From NCBI RefSeq assembly GCF_003790525.1, contig NZ_CP033635.1: DNA of 64,000 bases. One strand, 5' to 3'. Shown here one piece after another: positions 1,998 to 48,593 of the stretch (position 1 is its first letter; each line of letters starts with the position of its first letter). The position numbers and the translations under genes are program-made. Origin of the DNA: Escherichia coli. Its GTDB lineage: Bacteria > Pseudomonadota > Gammaproteobacteria > Enterobacterales > Enterobacteriaceae. The notes beneath the pieces are model-generated. The model searched no databases. It was not told the DNA's origin and saw only the letters and a list, made by a program, of their open reading frames with translations.

Positions 1998-2224
1998 TGA
2001 ATAAATCCTTTAGTTATTTTATTTGCCTTTTATCCCCATTTCGGGGAGTGAAAACATCCTAAAGGAGAAGTTCAGTTAGCCGATAAATATCATTTGTTAC
2101 GCCTTAAGTAAAACCTTAATCAAATAATTCCTCTGAAATGATAATAAGTCTGGTGAATGTATCGAAGATAATACATACAAAATAAAAATTATACTTTTAA
2201 TTTGCTATACGTTATTCTTCGCGG

Positions 2225-2333
2225 GTTATATGCCTTTATTGTCACAGATTTTATTTTCTGTTGGGCCATTGCATTGCCACTGATTTTCCAACATATAAAA
2301 AGACAAGCCCGAACAGTCGTCCGGGCTTTTTTT
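2225..2333 (+). ncRNA. micC: MicC small regulatory RNA (represses ompC)
   Basis: Sequence gttatatgcctttattgtcacagattttattttctg...gcccgaacagtcgtccgggctttttttt matches MicC as I remember it, including the terminator hairpin and T-run; lies in the ompN–ydbK intergenic region. Confidence 0.88.
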
Positions 2334-2362
2334 TAGAATTGGATAATCCTTATCCAGAGCAT

Positions 2363-5300
2363 TTAATCGGTGTTGCTTTTTTCCGCTTTTCCGGCCATTT
2401 GTGCCAGGAAGTCATAGCGTTTTTGCAAATCAGCTGCAGCATCTTTCCATAACTGTTCTGCCACTTCTGGCTGCTGCGAATTCAGACGACGGAAACGTTG
2501 CTCATGAAGTAACGTTTCTTCCAGTGCTTCTGACGGCGGGCGTGAATCCAGTGCCAGCGGCAGTTTGCCTTCATCGGCTCGACGTGGATCAAAGCGATAT
2601 AGCGGCCAGAAGCCGGTAGCAGTGAGTTGGCGCATCTGGTCGTGGCTGAGAGCCAGATCGTAACCATGCTCTTCACACGGGCTATAAGCAATGATCAGCG
2701 ATGGTCCCGGATACGCTTCCGCTTCCTGAATCGCTTTCACCGTCTGGTTCAGCTGCGCGCCGAGAGAAATCTGCGCCACATAAACATGACCGTACATCAT
2801 CATACTGACGCCAAGATCTTTACGCGCTTTACGTTTGCCGTGCTCGCCGAACTTAGTTACTGCACCCAGCGGTGTCGCTTTCGACGCCTGACCACCAGTG
2901 TTGGAATAGCATTGCGTATCCAGCACCAGAATGTTGACGTTTTCCGTCAGGCTCAATACATGATCCAGACCGCCAAAGCCAATATCGTAAGCCCAGCCAT
3001 CGCCACCAATCAGCCAGATTGATTTTTCCACCAGAGCATCTGCGTCACGCAGCAGTTCATGTGCTTCGGCAACATCGTTGAGTTGCTGGCGTAAAGCTGC
3101 AACCTGTTCACGACGAATCTCTGGCGTAGCGTCTGATTTCAACGCAGTCAGTAATTCCGCCGGGATTTTATCGGCAAATTGATCCAGCAGACGCAGCACG
3201 CGGACACGGTGTTGATCGACCGTAAGGCGGAAACCAAGGCCGAATTCGGCGTTATCTTCAAACAGCGAGTTCGCCCATGCCGGTCCACGACCGTTGGCAT
3301 CAGTGGTATATGGTGTGGAGGGCAGGTTACCACCATAAATTGAAGAACAACCCGTAGCGTTAGCGATCAACATCCGATCGCCATAGAGCTGAGTCAGCAA
3401 TTTAATATACGGCGTCTCGCCACAACCGGAGCAAGCACCGGAATATTCAAACAGCGGTGTAATCAGCTGTGATGTACGAATATCAATACGTTCCAGTTTG
3501 CTACGGTCGATTTCTGGCAGGTTGAGGAAGAAATCGTAATTGATTTTCTCTTCTTCGACATGTTCCAGCCGCGACATCATATTGATGGCTTTAATCTCTG
3601 GATTCTGACGGTCTTTCGCCGGGCAAACTTCGACGCACAGGTTACAACCGGTGCAATCTTCCGGAGCCACCTGCAAGACATATTTCTGCCCGCGCATATC
3701 ACGCGATTTCACATCCAGCGAATGCAGGCTGGCAGGGGCGTTTTCCATCGCTTCAGGCGGTACCACTTTTGCGCGAATAGCTGAGTGTGGGCAAGCAGCG
3801 ACGCAGTGGTTACATTGGGTACAGAGTTCCTCTTTCCAGATGGGGATCTCTTCGGCGATATTGCGTTTTTCCCAGCGCGTGGTGCCCATCGGCCAGGTGC
3901 CGTCTGGCGGCAGCGCCGAAACGGGGAGGGCATCACCAAGCCCGGCGAGCATCGCCGCGGTTACGGTTTTCACGAAATCAGGGGCGGCATCGGAAACCAC
4001 TGGCGGTCGATTGGCGCTGTGCGGATTTACTGGTTGCAGCGGAACTTCTTCTACGGATTCACGTGCCAGCGCCAGAGCCTGCCAGTTGCGCTCCACCAGA
4101 TCCTGACCTTTGCTACTGTAACTTTTGGCAATCGCACCCTGCAATTCTGCGAGGGCGCTATCGCCAGGCAGAATTTGCGTCAGATGGAAAAAAGCCATCT
4201 GCATGACGGTATTAATTCGGGCCGCCAGGCCACATTCGCGGGCGATTTTCGCCGCGTTAATCACATAGAAGCGCGCTTTTTTCTGGTTTAACACGGCCTG
4301 AACTTCCTGCGGCAAGCGCGACCACACTTCATCTGCGCTGTACGGCGTGTTGAGCAGGAAAATGCCGCCAGGTTTTAAACGCTCAACCATCTGATATTTG
4401 TCGATAAACTGCAACTGGTGGCAGCCAACAAAATCAGCCTGGGAAATCAGATAAGCGGAACGAATCGGCTGCTCGCTCACGCGAAGGTGAGAAACCGTCA
4501 GGCCGCCCGCCTTTTTGGAGTCGTAAACAAAATAGCCCTGTGCGTACCACGGCGTGGAATTACCGATAATCTTGATATTGTTTTTGGTCGCGGAAACGCT
4601 GCCATCACTACCAAGGCCATAAAACAAGGCTTCAAGTTTCGCCGAGTTTGGCAGGGTGTTTTCCGGCAACGGCAGTGACAGATTGGTCACATCATCGTAA
4701 ATACCAACCGTAAAGCGCGCTTTCGGTTTAGCCGCGTTGAGCTCGGCAAATACCGCCAGTACACAGTCCGGGCCAAATTCTTTGGATGAAAGACCATAGC
4801 GCCCACCAATGACACGGGGCAGGGTTTCGCGCTCGCCATTATTAAAGGCTTCTGCCAGTGCGGTCATCACATCCAGATAGAGCGGTTCTGCCTGGGCACC
4901 GGGTTCTTTGGTTCTGTCCAGTACCGCCACGCTGCGTACGGATCCCGGCAGAGCTTGTAGCAAGTGTTTGGCGGAGAAGGGACGGTACAGGCGAACTTTC
5001 AGCACGCCGACTTTTTCGCCACGGGTTAGCAATTCATCAACCACTTCTTCACAGGTGCCAATGGCTGAGCCCATCAGGATAATCACCCGTTCCGCTTGCG
5101 GATGCCCATAATACTCAAATGGCTGATACTGACGACCTGTCGCGGCAGCGAAATCATTCATCGCCTGTTCAACATGGTCATAGACCGCGTTGTACCAGGG
5201 GTTGGTGGCTTCGCGAGACTGGAAATAAGTGTCAGGATTGGCGGACGTACCGCGGATCACCGGATGTTCCGGGTTGAGCGCCCGGGCGCGATGAGCATCA

Positions 5301-5887: not shown

Positions 5888-6160
5888 ATGACACCCTTAC
5901 ATTGCGCAAATGAGGGGCGCACGAAATTGCTGCGCGCCCAGTAGTTATCTTTCAATTTTAGCAAATGGCTTTCTTCTGCATTTTCGCTTTTGTGTCCCCC
6001 ACATCAGCGTAATGAATGTTTTGATCAAACAGAGGGCAAAAAAATAGCCATAAAAAAGTAAAAATGCGGGGCAACGCGCAGGACAGCTCTCGACGCCGCC
6101 CTCTGTGCTGCCTATTATTTATGGCGGTGTCGTTTGGCTTGAAGATCAGAGGAAGAAAAG

Positions 6161-6427
6161 ATGCGAGCAGCGTTTTGGGTAGGGTGTGCCGCTTTATTAT
6201 TGTCGGCGTGTAGTAGTGAACCTGTTCAGCAGGCGACTGCGGCGCACGTAGCGCCAGGTTTAAAAGCGTCGATGTCCAGTAGTGGAGAAGCAAATTGTGC
6301 AATGATCGGCGGTTCGCTTTCTGTTGCCCGTCAACTGGATGGTACGGCGATTGGGATGTGTGCATTACCCAACGGCAAACGCTGTAGCGAACAGTCACTT
6401 GCCGCCGGGAGCTGTGGCAGCTATTAA
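6161..6427 (+). CDS. ydbJ: small lipoprotein (DUF333 family)
   Basis: 88-aa ORF with lipobox LLLSACSS; divergent from ydbK, convergent with hslJ. Confidence 0.8.
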   Translation: MRAAFWVGCAALLLSACSSEPVQQATAAHVAPGLKASMSSSGEANCAMIGGSLSVARQLDGTAIGMCALPNGKRCSEQSLAAGSCGSY

Positions 6428-6846
6428 TTCATTAAATCCGCCAGCTTATAAGTTAATGTCTGTTTCGCGGTCGCCAGCGTTAACTGGTTCGCGGTCAGAT
6501 CCACTTGTGCACCTTCTTTCAGCATTTCGCTAATGGTGTTATCGAGTTCATTAAGCTGCGGGTTAGCGCACATCATACGGGTCATTGCCAGTCCTTTGGC
6601 TGTCAGTTCACCATTAGACAGTTTGCCTTCACCGCTAAAGCGGTTACACATGCTGCCGGAAATCATCATCTTTTCACCAAAGCTGATTTCTGGCGGATTT
6701 TTATCGCTGGTCACGGGCTTACCGTTTACGCTTTCCAGCACAAAGCGATGATGCTGTAGCTGTTCTGGGGTTACAGCAATTTTGTCATTACTTACACATC
6801 CCGCCATCAGCAGGCTTAGCGCAACAAACGCGGCTACTTTCTTCAT
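6424..6846 (-). CDS. hslJ: heat-shock lipoprotein HslJ
   Basis: ORF track 6424..6858; likely start at MKKVAAFVALSLLMAGC (lipobox) giving 140 aa. Confidence 0.85.
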   Translation of the reverse strand: MKKVAAFVALSLLMAGCVSNDKIAVTPEQLQHHRFVLESVNGKPVTSDKNPPEISFGEKMMISGSMCNRFSGEGKLSNGELTAKGLAMTRMMCANPQLNELDNTISEMLKEGAQVDLTANQLTLATAKQTLTYKLADLMN

Positions 6847-6956: not shown

Positions 6957-7946
6957 TTAAACCAGTTCGTTCGGGCAGGTTTCGCCTTTTTCCAGATTGC
7001 TTAAGTTTTGCAGCGTAGTCTGAGAAATACTGGTCAGTGCTTCTGCTGTCAGGAATGCCTGGTGCCCGGTAAACAGCACGTTGTGGCAGGCAGACAGACG
7101 ACGGAATACGTCATCCTGGATCACGTCGTTGGATTTGTCTTCAAAGAACAGATCGCGTTCGTTCTCATACACGTCCATACCCAACGAACCAATTTTCTGA
7201 TTTTTCAGCGCTTCAATTGCTGCCTGAGAATTAATCAATGCACCGCGACTGGTATTGACGATCATCACGCCATTTTTCATCTGATCGAAGGCGGCTTCGT
7301 TCAACAGATGATAGTTTTCCGGTGTCAGCGGGCAGTGCAGAGAGATAACGTCTGATTCAGAGAACAGGGTTGGCAGATCGACATACTCCACACCGAGTTC
7401 CAGCGCCGCCGCACTTGGATACGGATCGAACGCCAGCAGACGCATACCAAAACCTTTCAGAATGCGCAGCATCGCCACACCGATTTTACCAGTACCGATA
7501 ACGCCTGCCGTTTTGCCATACATAGTAAAGCCGGTCAGACCTTCCAGAGAGAAGTTGGCGTCACGGGTACGCTGATACGCGCGGTGAATACGGCGGTTCA
7601 GCGTCATCATCATACCGATGGCATGTTCAGCAACGGCTTCTGGATCATAGGCTGGAACACGGACTACTTTCAGCCCCAGTTCTTTTGCCGCGTCAAGGTC
7701 GACGTTATTGAAACCGGCACAGCGCAGGGCGATATATTTAACGCCGTGCTTTTTCAGCTCTTCCAGCACCGGGCGGCTGCCGTCATCGTTTACGAAAATA
7801 CATACCGCTTCGCAGCCATTGGCAGTTTTAGCGGTTTTTTCCGTCAGCAGAAAGTCAAAAAATTCCAGCTCAAAGCCAAAGGACTCGTTCACCTGTTGCA
7901 GGTACTTCTTGTCGTACTGTTTTGTGCTATAAACGGCGAGTTTCAT
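6957..7946 (-). CDS. ldhA: fermentative D-lactate dehydrogenase (NAD-dependent)
   Basis: 329-aa ORF starting MKLAVYSTKQYDKKYLQQVNE; 2-hydroxyacid dehydrogenase family with NAD-binding GxGxxG (GTGKIG). Confidence 0.93.
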   Translation of the reverse strand: MKLAVYSTKQYDKKYLQQVNESFGFELEFFDFLLTEKTAKTANGCEAVCIFVNDDGSRPVLEELKKHGVKYIALRCAGFNNVDLDAAKELGLKVVRVPAYDPEAVAEHAIGMMMTLNRRIHRAYQRTRDANFSLEGLTGFTMYGKTAGVIGTGKIGVAMLRILKGFGMRLLAFDPYPSAAALELGVEYVDLPTLFSESDVISLHCPLTPENYHLLNEAAFDQMKNGVMIVNTSRGALINSQAAIEALKNQKIGSLGMDVYENERDLFFEDKSNDVIQDDVFRRLSACHNVLFTGHQAFLTAEALTSISQTTLQNLSNLEKGETCPNELV

Positions 7947-35146: not shown

Positions 35147-35211
35147 AAAGAAAACGCCTGTACTAAAACCGACCCGTGGTACAGGCGAAGAATACGGGTC
35201 TACATCGGAAG
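35147..35211 (-). ncRNA. rydC: RydC small RNA
   Basis: Reverse complement reads cttccgatgtagacccgtattcttcgcctgtaccacgggtcggttttagtacaggcgttttctt, matching RydC as I remember it; lies in the cybB–ydcA intergenic region. Confidence 0.75.
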
Positions 35212-35555: not shown

Positions 35556-35627
35556 AGTGTAAAAGGGGTGCCATGAGAAAATGAATCTGCTAGTCAGATG
35601 CGCGGGGAAAATCCCCGCGCTTGCCCT

Positions 35628-35860
<233 letters not shown>

Positions 35861-36174
35861 TGGTCGGGGCCTTCGTCTTTCTGATTCCCGGTTAGCCTGA
35901 AAACAGAAAGTCTCAGGCACCCGTGAGCATCCTATGTGGTTTCCTTAAGGACGAAAATAATCACCTGACGAAATTGCGTGCTGTTTTCCAGAATTTTTCG
36001 TCATTCGGTTTAGCCAGTTTAATCATTCGTTACTCTCTTCATTCCAATGGCATTATTCTTCTCTGCCATAATTGTTGTAAAAATGTGACGCAAAGAGGTT
36101 TTTGGTCGTAAGAAATTACCGTCAAGTGCCGATGACTTTCTATCAGGAGTAAACCTGGAAGAGAGACAACGGTA

Positions 36175-47168: not shown

Positions 47169-48593
47169 TAATGCCGATCAGTTAAGGATCAGTTGACCGA
47201 TCCAGTGGCTGTGTAAGAATCCGGAAACGCTCACTTGTTTCCGGATTTTTTATGCACATTGGACAGGCTCTTGATCTGGTATCCCGTTACGATTCTCTGC
47301 GTAACCCACTGACTTCTCTGGGGGATTACCTCGACCCCGAACTCATCTCTCGTTGCCTTGCCGAATCAGGTACTGTAACGCTACGCAAGCGCCGTCTTCC
47401 CCTCGAAATGATGGTCTGGTGTATTGTTGGCATGGCGCTTGAGCGTAAAGAACCTCTTCACCAGATTGTGAATCGCCTGGACATCATGCTGCCGGGCAAT
47501 CGCCCCTTCGTTGCCCCCAGTGCCGTTATTCAGGCCCGCCAGCGCCTGGGAAGTGAGGCTGTCCGCCGCGTGTTCACGAAAACAGCGCAGCTCTGGCATA
47601 ACGCCACGCCGCATCCGCACTGGTGCGGCCTGACCCTGCTGGCCATCGATGGTGTGTTCTGGCGCACACCGGATACACCAGAGAACGATGCAGCCTTCCC
47701 CCGCCAGACACATGCCGGGAACCCGGCGCTCTACCCGCAGGTCAAAATGGTCTGCCAGATGGAACTGACCAGCCATCTGCTGACGGCTGCAGCCTTCGGC
47801 ACGATGAAGAACAGCGAAAATGAGCTTGCTGAGCAACTTATAGAACAAACCGGCGATAACACTCTGACGTTAATGGATAAAGGTTATTACTCACTGGGAC
47901 TGTTAAATGCCTGGAGCCTGGCGGGAGAACACCGCCACTGGATGATACCTCTCAGAAAGGGAGCGCAATATGAAGAGATCAGAAAACTGGGTAAAGGCGA
48001 TCATCTGGTGAAGCTGAAAACCAGCCCGCAGGCACGAAAAAAGTGGCCGGGACTGGGAAATGAAGTGACAGCCCGCCTGCTGACCGTGACGCGCAAAGGA
48101 AAAGTCTGCCATCTGCTGACGTCGATGACGGACGCCATGCGCTTCCCCGGAGGAGAAATGGCGGATCTGTACAGTCATCGCTGGGAAATCGAACTGGGAT
48201 ACAGGGAGATAAAACAGACGATGCAACTGAGCAGGCTGACGCTGAGAAGTAAAAAACCGGAGCTTGTGGAGCAAGAGCTGTGGGGTGTCTTACTGGCTTA
48301 TAATCTGGTGAGATATCAGATGATTAAAATGGCAGAACATCTGAAAGGTTACTGGCCGAATCAACTGAGTTTCTCAGAATCATGTGGAATGGTGATGAGA
48401 ATGCTGATGACATTGCAGGGCGCTTCACCGGGACGTATACCGGAGCTGATGCGCGATCTTGCAAGTATGGGACAACTTGTGAAATTACCGACAAGAAGGG
48501 AAAGGGCCTTCCCGAGAGTGGTAAAGGAGAGGCCCTGGAAATACCCCACAGCCCCGAAAAAGAGCCAGTCAGTTGCTTAACTGACTGGCATTA
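47169..48593 (+). mobile_element. insertion sequence IS4 (about 1425 bp)
   Basis: Imperfect 18-bp terminal inverted repeats (TAATGCCGATCAGTTAAG left; TAATGCCAGTCAGTTAAG at right, reverse-complemented), a single 442-aa transposase ORF, and flanking 12-bp direct repeats. Confidence 0.92.
47252..48580 (+). CDS. insG: IS4 transposase (DDE family)
   Basis: 442-aa ORF starting [35 protein letters not shown]; contains the IS4-family YREIK motif ([14 protein letters not shown]). Confidence 0.92.

What the first reader, a model, noticed from the sequence alone, without database searches (positions are those of the whole stretch)
6424..6427. Convergent genes with overlapping or abutting stop codons and no intervening terminator (ydbJ/hslJ; also ydcY/ydcZ at 61277/61278)
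The ydbJ and hslJ stop codons overlap on opposite strands, and the ydcY and ydcZ stops abut with zero spacing. Convergent transcripts must therefore overlap, which allows antisense interference or terminators embedded in coding sequence.
Basis: seen in the sequence. Interest (0 to 1): 0.2.

Follow-up and report, generated by a model that had tools for sequence, protein, structure and literature searches.

The report
Back-to-back E. coli genes sharing stops
Two pairs of E. coli genes that face each other end to end really do share or touch stop codons, so their RNAs overlap, but this is a common and already catalogued arrangement in E. coli.

Summary
ydbJ (+, 6161..6427) and hslJ (-, 6424..6846) share the tetramer TTAA. 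ydcY (+, ends 61277) and ydcZ (-, starts 61278) abut with no spacer. RefSeq annotation of SMS-3-5 and of K-12 agrees, and all four proteins match Pfam families over nearly their full length.

Published K-12 data show:
- a ydcY 3' end 37 nt inside ydcZ;
- Rho-sensitive regions on the + strand downstream of both small genes;
- antisense RNA at or above sense RNA over hslJ and ydcZ;
- an RNase III-cut duplex in the ydcY 3' end;
- ydbJ-hslJ listed among 165 convergent "excludons" (2025).

E. coli has 58-75 convergent overlaps, and four nucleotides is the modal length. In this window, 4 of 11 convergent junctions have spacing of zero or less.

New detail found here:
- Both tight junctions are conserved across Enterobacteriaceae.
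- Strong hairpins without U-tracts lie in the partner's last codons (-25 kcal/mol, 15 nt after the hslJ stop).
- C-rich, Rho-loading-like tracts follow.

The 3' ends are therefore probably made by Rho termination plus hairpin-protected ends inside the partner gene. A regulatory role is untested. This is ordinary, low-interest biology.

The parts
6161..6427 (+). ydbJ CDS (88 aa, DUF333 lipoprotein), stop TAA at 6425-6427
6424..6846 (-). hslJ CDS (140 aa, META-domain lipoprotein). The stop TAA is read from 6426 down to 6424 and is followed in frame by TAG.
6424..6427 (.). TTAA tetramer that holds both stop codons (4-nt convergent overlap)
   Evidence: This class is described in PMC2174442.
6368..6409 (-). 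Strong hairpin in hslJ-sense RNA, 15 nt past the hslJ stop. It has 18 pairs, 4 of them G.U, and folds at -25 kcal/mol. It is encoded by ydbJ codons LPNGKRCSEQSLAAG. There is no U-tract. It is the predicted hslJ 3'-end hairpin.
   Evidence: It is in the top 0.02% of 45-nt windows in the 64 kb, and folds at only -18 on the other strand. It is conserved in Escherichia, Citrobacter and Cedecea. Covariation is inconclusive.
6458..6500 (+). Hairpin in ydbJ-sense RNA, 31 nt past the ydbJ stop (-18.4 kcal/mol here, -16.9 in K-12), inside hslJ codons. There is no U-tract. It appears to be leaky.
   Evidence: hslJ antisense RNA exceeds sense RNA in K-12.
6104..6223 (-). C-rich, G-poor (rut-like) tract on hslJ-sense RNA, 201-320 nt past the hslJ stop. 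C/G is 2.5-2.9, above the window's 99th percentile.
6040..6112 (-). Hairpin of -24.9 kcal/mol followed by a U-rich tail (GCAUUUUUACUUUUUUAU) in the ydbJ-ydbK intergenic region. It is a possible back-stop terminator for - strand read-through across ydbJ.
   Evidence: Conservation is patchy. No K-12 3' end was found.
6957..7030 (+). Approximate window equivalent (about 6992) of the K-12 Rho-sensitive region at 1441889 (+). It lies 565 nt past the ydbJ stop, antisense to the ldhA 3' end.
61044..61277 (+). ydcY CDS (77 aa, DUF2526), stop TGA at 61275-61277
61278..61727 (-). ydcZ CDS (149 aa, DMT_YdcZ), last gene of mnaT-ydcZ. The stop is read from 61280 down to 61278.
61284..61311 (.). Palindromic hairpin encoded by the last ydcZ codons (GAWLVARR, with the rare Arg codon AGA). 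It folds at -13.5 kcal/mol on ydcY-sense RNA and is stronger (-17 to -22) in Lelliottia, Trabulsiella, Yokenella and Kosakonia.
61314..61314 (+). Window equivalent of the K-12 Term-seq 3' end at 1517918 (the primary 3' end of ydcY). It is 37 nt past the stop and 5 nt after the hairpin, inside ydcZ.
61275..61286 (-). Short U-rich tail (UCAUUUUAAUCA) after the hairpin on ydcZ-sense RNA. It contains the Phe codon and the stop codon, so it makes a marginal intrinsic-terminator-like element.
   Evidence: inference
61235..61256 (.). Window equivalent of the p19-captured, RNase III-cut 22-bp dsRNA in the ydcY 3' end (K-12 U00096.2 coordinates 1515862-1515884).
61478..61617 (+). C-rich, G-poor tract (C/G 2.0-2.3) on ydcY-sense RNA inside ydcZ. 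It coincides with the K-12 Rho-sensitive region at 1518196, which is 315 nt past the ydcY stop (window about 61592).

Best explanation
These are two ordinary, evolutionarily old, maximally compact convergent gene junctions of Enterobacteriaceae.

The spacing between the stops drifts around zero through stop-codon movement. Because there is no spacer, each mRNA has to end inside the partner's coding sequence.

Transcription from the better-expressed small genes (ydbJ and ydcY, + strand) runs antisense into hslJ and ydcZ. That RNA is untranslated, so Rho terminates it a few hundred nucleotides downstream, after C-rich tracts. Stable 3' ends then sit just after G+C-rich hairpins that lie in the partner's last codons. 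These ends arise either by hairpin-assisted pausing or collision, or by exonuclease trimming back to the hairpin. The - strand transcripts (hslJ and mnaT-ydcZ) behave in the same way at lower levels.

The complementary 3' regions can pair, and RNase III cuts the duplex.

What is shown: the gene geometry, the hairpins, the C-rich tracts and the conservation (shown here), and the K-12 3' end, Rho sensitivity, antisense levels and dsRNA (from the literature).

What is inferred: which mechanism forms each 3' end, and whether any of this has a regulatory consequence.
For: Geometry and annotation.

Conservation of the tight junctions:
- hslJ and ydbJ are convergent in all 47 related loci recovered. 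These are nearly all Enterobacteriaceae, and the two that carry other genus names look like contamination. Stop spacing is -7 to +13 nt in 43 of them. The -4 class appears as TTAA, CTAG or TTAG.
- ydcY/ydcZ spacing is 0-4 nt in 6 of the 7 other loci sampled that carry ydcZ.

Hairpins in the partner's coding sequence:
- -25 kcal/mol on the - strand, 15 nt after the hslJ stop. This is in the top 0.02% of windows and is strand-asymmetric.
- -18.4 kcal/mol after the ydbJ stop.
- -13.5 kcal/mol after the ydcY stop.
- None has a U-tract.

The scan for canonical terminators finds nothing above chance.

C/G-rich tracts lie downstream.

K-12 experiments:
- Term-seq 3' end 37 nt into ydcZ, 5 nt after the hairpin.
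- BCM-sensitive regions at +315 (ydcY) and +565 (ydbJ).
- Sense/antisense RPM of 13.5/28.3 for hslJ and 10.1/11.8 for ydcZ, against 43.8/1.4 for ydbJ and 112.4/1.3 for ydcY.
- p19 dsRNA in the ydcY 3' end.
- ydbJ-hslJ in the excludon list.

Generality:
- 276 of 370 convergent operons overlap, by 286 nt on average.
- 58-75 convergent CDS overlaps exist, with embedded terminators already discussed.
Against: - No 3' end has been mapped for hslJ, ydbJ or ydcZ in the datasets I could read.
- The Rho-sensitive + strand RNA over hslJ and ldhA could start at an internal antisense promoter rather than at ydbJ.
- Rho scores use 800-nt windows, so the positions are coarse.
- Covariation does not prove that the hairpins are selected as RNA. 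For hslJ, 84% of cells pair but only 3 pairs show double changes. For ydcZ there are none. Conservation of the encoded peptides could explain the hairpins.
- The experimental data are from K-12, not from this strain.
Confidence: 0.8

Rival explanations
1. Selected excludon. The zero or negative spacing is maintained by selection because mutual antisense repression makes hslJ and ydbJ (and ydcY and mnaT-ydcZ) mutually exclusive in expression. The repression would work through transcriptional interference or RNase III cleavage of the duplex.
For: - ydbJ-hslJ is in the MG1655 excludon list, being present in at least 50% of 58 transcriptomes.
- Antisense exceeds sense over hslJ and ydcZ, and there is p19/RNase III dsRNA at the ydcY 3' end.
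- The tight junction is conserved across genera.
- The hslJ-sense hairpin is strand-asymmetric.
Against: - In the total-RNA table, hslJ and ydcZ sense levels do not rise in the rnc-14 or rnc-38 mutants (hslJ 13.5, 13.4 and 9.3; ydcZ 10.1, 5.5 and 3.2).
- Exact spacing is not conserved. It ranges from -7 to +13, with occasional values of 45-124 nt, and 90 nt in one Citrobacter for ydcY/ydcZ.
- ydcY-ydcZ is not in the excludon list.
- Overlap is the rule for about 75% of convergent operons, so it needs no special selection.
- Mutual exclusivity has not been tested for these pairs.
Confidence: 0.15
2. Collision-driven bidirectional termination. Head-on RNA polymerase collisions at the embedded stem-loops release both polymerases independently of Rho and U-tracts, as proposed for E. 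coli convergent pairs (Ju et al. 2019; Wang et al. preprint).
For: - The stem-loops lack U-tracts and sit right at the junctions.
- The ydcY 3' end lies 5 nt after the hairpin.
- The class is described as not resembling intrinsic terminators and as needing a stem-loop.
Against: - That class is described as Rho-independent, but both loci show BCM-sensitive read-through on the + strand.
- Collisions need frequent simultaneous transcription, and hslJ and ydcZ are weakly expressed (10-14 RPM).
- I could not read the SEnd-seq site list.
Confidence: 0.2
3. Annotation artefact. One of the small ORFs (ydbJ or ydcY) is not a real gene, or a stop is misplaced, so there is no true overlap.
For: Both are small and poorly characterised (88 and 77 aa).
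Against: - Both match Pfam families over nearly their full length (DUF333 at 1.1e-13, DUF2526 at 1.1e-46).
- YdbJ is 75-99% identical across genera, with the same C-terminus.
- YdcY has 679 homologues, mostly of exactly 77 aa.
- Both have abundant sense RNA.
- Curated K-12 and PGAP annotations agree.
Confidence: 0.02

Closest known systems
Short convergent (tail-to-tail) gene overlaps of prokaryotes, 4-nt stop/stop class (Lillo & Krakauer 2007, PMC2174442; Huvet & Stumpf 2014, PMC4161906)
   Same: ydbJ/hslJ uses TTAA, one of the four possible tetramers (CTAA, TTAA, CTAG, TTAG). Orthologous junctions use TTAA, CTAG and TTAG. The 2007 paper already notes that terminators of such genes must lie in the partner's coding sequence.
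   Different: ydcY/ydcZ is not an overlap. It is an exact abutment (spacing 0), although orthologues vary from 0 to 4 nt.
Convergent excludons and overlapping convergent operons in E. coli (Sesto et al. 2013; Conway et al. 2014, PMC4161252; ExcludonFinder 2025, PMC12288877)
   Same: The 3' transcript ends are complementary. ydbJ-hslJ is explicitly listed among the 165 convergent excludons. dsRNA and antisense reads exist for both loci in K-12.
   Different: The defining functional feature, mutually exclusive expression, has not been shown for either pair. ydcY-ydcZ is not in the published list. Here the overlap includes coding sequence, not only UTRs.
Rho-dependent termination of untranslated antisense RNA, with exonuclease trimming to a protective stem-loop (Dar & Sorek 2018, PMC6061677; Adams et al. 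2021, PMC7815308)
   Same: There are BCM-sensitive regions downstream of both small genes, C-rich and G-poor tracts, and a stable ydcY 3' end 5 nt after a hairpin that has no U-tract.
   Different: Trimming has not been demonstrated at these sites. No data exist for the - strand transcripts.
Overlapping bidirectional terminators driven by RNA polymerase collisions (Ju et al. 2019; Wang et al. preprint 10.1101/2022.10.23.513370)
   Same: There is a stem-loop at a convergent junction, with no canonical U-tract.
   Different: That class is reported to be Rho-independent and to lie between genes. Here the stem-loops lie inside coding sequence, and read-through is Rho-sensitive.

Membership tests
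4-nt convergent stop/stop gene overlap | Two genuine protein-coding genes on opposite strands, tail to tail | tested here: met
   Pfam matches for all four proteins, conserved orthologues, and two independent annotations.
4-nt convergent stop/stop gene overlap | Stop codons share one of the tetramers TTAA, CTAA, TTAG or CTAG | tested here: met
   ydbJ/hslJ share TTAA at 6424..6427. This is NOT met for ydcY/ydcZ, which reads TGA|TTA with spacing 0. That pair abuts and does not overlap.
Convergent excludon | The 3' regions of the two transcripts overlap in vivo | tested here: inconclusive
   This cannot be measured with these tools. Published K-12 data support it through the excludon list, the Term-seq end inside ydcZ, antisense reads and p19 dsRNA. 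No data exist for this strain.
Convergent excludon | Expression of one gene represses the other (mutually exclusive expression; RNase III or interference dependence) | not testable with these tools
   There is only an indirect hint against it. hslJ and ydcZ sense RPM do not rise in rnc mutants.
Canonical intrinsic (Rho-independent) terminator | G+C-rich stem-loop | tested here: met
   Hairpins of -25, -18.4 and -13.5 kcal/mol lie just past the hslJ, ydbJ and ydcY stops.
Canonical intrinsic (Rho-independent) terminator | U-tract (about 5 or more U in 8 nt) immediately after the stem | tested here: not met
   The tails are TAATGCAC, CCACTTGT and ACCACAAG. The consensus scan finds no more sites than shuffled sequence does. 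Only the ydcZ-sense side has a marginal tail, UCAUUUUAAU.
Rho-dependent terminator | C-rich, G-poor untranslated RNA upstream of the termination zone | tested here: met
   C/G is 2.5-2.9 on the - strand after hslJ and 2.0-2.3 on the + strand after ydcY (the window's 99th percentile is 2.2). It is only 1.5-1.8 on the + strand after ydbJ.
Rho-dependent terminator | Read-through increases when Rho is inhibited | not testable with these tools
   Published K-12 BCM data give Rho score 15.8 at 1518196 (+) and 4.2 at 1441889 (+). There are no - strand entries.
Collision-type overlapping bidirectional terminator (SEnd-seq class) | Both transcripts end at the flanks of one stem-loop, independently of Rho | tested here: inconclusive
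   One 3' end (ydcY) fits. Rho sensitivity argues against it.
Structured RNA element under selection (dual coding/RNA constraint) | Compensatory base-pair changes across species | tested here: inconclusive
   For the hslJ-sense hairpin, 84% of cells pair, 3 of 18 pairs show double changes, and 16 cells show a change on both sides against 7.1 expected from shuffling. For the ydcZ hairpin there are no compensatory changes in 8 sequences. There is no Rfam match.

The most novel reading that the evidence does not exclude
The hairpins in the last 10-20 codons of ydbJ and ydcZ may be dual-purpose elements kept by selection. [quoted passage not shown] The hslJ-sense hairpin is stabilised by four G.U pairs that work only on that strand, and the ydcZ hairpin keeps a rare AGA or CGA Arg codon. 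On this reading, the spacer-free junctions persist across Enterobacteriaceae because they couple the expression of envelope/stress genes (hslJ with ydbJ, mnaT-ydcZ with ydcY) through reciprocal antisense control.
Probability: 0.15. Interest if true: 0.35.

Novelty: already known. Interest (0 to 1): 0.12.

Why it matters
It matters little beyond housekeeping. The result confirms that these stop positions are real, and that annotation pipelines should not "fix" such overlaps.

It also gives two clean, conserved examples where an mRNA 3' end must be made inside a neighbour's coding sequence. These could serve as convenient test loci for three questions: Rho versus collision termination, embedded hairpins, and whether convergent overlap ("excludons") has any regulatory effect.

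The general phenomenon is established, as is the listing of ydbJ-hslJ, so no open question is newly unlocked.

Tried and rejected
1. Canonical intrinsic terminators near either junction. The consensus scans gave only weak sites at the shuffle expectation, and my own hairpin plus T-tail scan found none after the stops.

2. RNA-level selection on the embedded hairpins. The covariation counts are weak or absent, so I do not claim selection.

3. The strong - strand hairpin with a U-rich tail upstream of ydbJ (6040..6112), considered as the "real" hslJ terminator. Conservation in other genera is patchy and no K-12 3' end matches it. I kept it only as a possibility.

4. Mapped 3' ends for hslJ or ydbJ. 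There are none in Adams 2021, TERMITe or SMRT-Cappable-seq. Supplements of ExcludonFinder, Dar & Sorek and Conway are not held. Ju et al. 2019 is not held.

5. Annotation artefact. Rejected.

6. Known RNA families or tRNAs at the junctions. None found.

7. Further literature on antisense RNA at hslJ. Nothing beyond ExcludonFinder.

Full report
**Where the window comes from.** The window is a chromosomal segment of E. coli that is almost identical to strain SMS-3-5 (NC_010498.1, about 1,730.6-1,794.6 kb, reverse complement). Both queried regions hit that record at 100%. Across the whole window there are only three SNPs and one 1-nt deletion.

**The observation.**
- ydbJ is 6161..6427 (+) and ends ...AGC TAT TAA, with the stop at 6425-6427.
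- hslJ is 6424..6846 (-) and ends ...ATG AAT TAA, read from 6426 down to 6424, followed in frame by TAG.
- The two ORFs share TTAA at 6424..6427, and the stop codons share two bases.
- ydcY is 61044..61277 (+) and ends in TGA.
- ydcZ is 61278..61727 (-), and its stop begins at the very next base.
- PGAP annotation of SMS-3-5 and the curated MG1655 record give the same -4 and 0 spacings.
- The four products match DUF333, META, DUF2526 and DMT_YdcZ, with profile coverage that runs to the C-termini.
- Orthologues in other genera end at the same residues.

The 60-nt ydbJ/hslJ junction is identical in 5128 of 5426 complete E. coli genomes.

**Is it unusual?** No.
- In this window, 4 of 11 annotated convergent junctions have spacing of zero or less.
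- Of the other seven, one is a 14-nt junction created by an IS4 insertion in ydcO. The remaining six are 34-96 nt, too short for two separate terminators.
- Lillo & Krakauer (PMC2174442) counted 58 convergent overlaps in E. coli. They named TTAA, CTAA, CTAG and TTAG as the tetramers behind the modal 4-nt class. They also noted that Rho-independent terminators of such genes must lie in the partner's coding sequence.
- Huvet & Stumpf counted 75 convergent overlaps.
- Conway et al. found that 276 of 370 convergent operons overlap at their 3' ends, by 286 nt on average.

**Evolution.**
- A genome-collection scan with HslJ returned 47 related loci, nearly all from Enterobacteriaceae. ydbJ is convergent with hslJ in every one.
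- The stop spacing is -7 (3 loci), -4 (15 loci, as TTAA, CTAG or TTAG), 0-13 nt (25 loci), and 45-124 nt in only four.
- For ydcY/ydcZ the spacing is 0 in Kosakonia, 2 in Trabulsiella and Yokenella, 3 in Enterobacter and Lelliottia, 4 in Salmonella enterica subsp. indica, and 90 in one Citrobacter.
- In a Salmonella bongori-like genome ydcZ is absent.

The spacer-free arrangement is therefore old. The exact overlap simply drifts by stop-codon movement.

**Anatomy around the junctions.** There is no canonical terminator. There are strong hairpins just past each stop, inside the partner's last codons.
- On the - strand, 15 nt after the hslJ stop, 6409..6368 folds at -25 kcal/mol with 18 pairs. 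It is one of the half-dozen most stable 45-nt windows in the whole 64 kb (top 0.02%). Because it uses four G.U pairs, the complementary strand reaches only -18.
- This hairpin is retained in Escherichia, Citrobacter and Cedecea-like genomes (-18 to -32). It is weaker and symmetric in Klebsiella, Raoultella and Kluyvera.
- Covariation for it is modest: 84% of cells pair and 3 of 18 pairs carry double changes. The encoded peptide is conserved, so RNA-level selection is unproven.
- On the + strand, 31 nt after the ydbJ stop, 6458..6500 folds at -18.4 (-16.9 in K-12).
- At the other locus, a palindromic hairpin encoded by the last ydcZ codons (61284..61311) folds at -13.5 in E. coli and at -17 to -22 in four other genera. 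It keeps a rare AGA or CGA arginine codon.
- On the ydcZ-sense strand that hairpin is followed by a short U-run that contains the Phe and stop codons.
- C-rich, G-poor tracts typical of Rho loading sites follow. C/G is 2.5-2.9 on the - strand, 201-320 nt after the hslJ stop. It is 2.0-2.3 on the + strand, 201-340 nt after the ydcY stop. The window's 99th percentile is 2.2.

**Experimental evidence from K-12.** K-12 has the same geometry and differs by a single SNP within +-150 nt of the ydbJ/hslJ junction.
- Adams et al. (PMC7815308) list a Term-seq 3' end at 1517918 (+), classed as primary for ydcY and antisense to ydcZ, in two of the growth-condition sheets. It lies 37 nt past the ydcY stop and 5 nt after the hairpin.
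- Their bicyclomycin experiment gives Rho-sensitive regions at 1518196 (+), 315 nt past the ydcY stop (score 15.8). It gives another at 1441889 (+), 565 nt past the ydbJ stop and just inside the ldhA 3' end (score 4.2).
- Huang et al. (PMC7373196) report sense/antisense total-RNA RPM of 43.8/1.4 for ydbJ and 13.5/28.3 for hslJ, and of 112.4/1.3 for ydcY and 10.1/11.8 for ydcZ. Most neighbours have antisense at 1-8% of sense.
- p19-captured dsRNA is enriched over hslJ, ydcY and ydcZ relative to neighbours.
- A 22-bp RNase III product maps 21-43 nt upstream of the ydcY stop (window 61235..61256). ydcZ-sense RNA therefore runs at least 45 nt past its own stop and pairs with ydcY mRNA.
- ExcludonFinder (PMC12288877) lists ydbJ-hslJ among the 165 convergent excludons of MG1655, but not ydcY-ydcZ.

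**Most likely mechanism.** The small, better-expressed + strand genes read through into their partners. Normalising the RPM values by gene length gives a rough estimate: about 40% of the ydbJ signal continues over hslJ, and about 5% of the ydcY signal continues over ydcZ.

That RNA is untranslated, so Rho terminates it after the C-rich tracts. The stable ends sit just 3' of the embedded hairpins, as seen for ydcY. These ends arise either by trimming or by hairpin-assisted, non-canonical termination. The - strand transcripts do the same at lower levels.

Collision-driven termination is a possible contributor, but it fits the Rho sensitivity and the low expression less well. Regulatory "excludon" behaviour is possible but undemonstrated. 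In the rnc mutants, hslJ and ydcZ sense levels do not rise.

**Verdict.** The feature belongs to a well-described, common class, and one of the two pairs is already catalogued. It is low interest. The only mildly new points are the cross-genus persistence of the spacer-free junctions and the strong, strand-asymmetric hairpin in the ydbJ coding end.

Noticed in passing
rimL (+, ends 43183) and ydcK (-, starts 43175) overlap by 9 nt. K-12 has a Rho-sensitive + strand region antisense to ydcK (1499587).
   Followed up: partly
window 35581..35922: The hokB toxin gene (-, 35627..35776) overlaps the small ORF yncP (+, 35581..35649) by 23 nt. The sokB antitoxin RNA (Rfam sok, 35771..35922, -) and the RydC sRNA (35148..35211, -) lie next to it.
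   Followed up: no
window 2222..2363: The MicC sRNA (+, 2222..2342) converges on the ydbK/nifJ stop (- strand ORF, ending at 2363) with only 20 nt between them. This is another very tight convergent junction.
   Followed up: no
window 6040..6112 (- strand): A strong hairpin (-24.9 kcal/mol) followed by GCAUUUUUACUUUUUUAU lies in the ydbJ-ydbK intergenic region, overlapping a promoter-like site for ydbJ (TCGACG-17-TATTAT, 6090..6118). It could stop - strand read-through from hslJ before the ydbK promoter. Conservation is patchy, and no K-12 3' end was found.
   Followed up: partly
window 5895..5945 (- strand): A G+C-rich hairpin followed by a T-containing tail (GGGCGCGCAGCAATTTCGTGCGCCCC TCATTTGCGC) lies just upstream of the ydbK/nifJ start. 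A similarly placed hairpin with a CTCTTTTTGCGC tail occurs in Citrobacter loci. It may be a 5'-UTR regulatory structure.
   Followed up: no
window 19554 (also 7232, 19393, 29409): The window differs from NC_010498.1 by three SNPs and by a 1-nt deletion in an A-run (A6 to A5). The deletion splits ydbD, which is 768 aa in RefSeq, into two ORFs (18844..19590 and 19590..21155). This is either a frameshifted allele or a sequencing difference in a close relative of SMS-3-5.
   Followed up: partly
window 47252..48580: An IS4 transposase is inserted in ydcO, which is annotated as two pseudogene fragments. The insertion creates an artificial 14-nt convergent junction.
   Followed up: no
window 11764..17718: An intact 1984-aa autotransporter ORF sits at the ydbA position. 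It contains internal repeats that are about 85-87% identical (around 12094..12444).
   Followed up: no
L051 and L033: Some public assemblies are probably contaminated or mislabelled. A 413-bp contig of 'Alkalicoccobacillus porphyridii' is 100% identical to E. coli hslJ/ydbJ. A 'Chryseobacterium sp. 18061' contig carries an enterobacterial hslJ-ydbJ locus.
   Followed up: no
window ~4168, 35644, 46435, 55846 (- strand); 9028, 35773, 40720 (+ strand): These are the other most stable 45-nt local structures in the window (-24 to -27 kcal/mol). They were not examined and may be REP elements or terminators.
   Followed up: no
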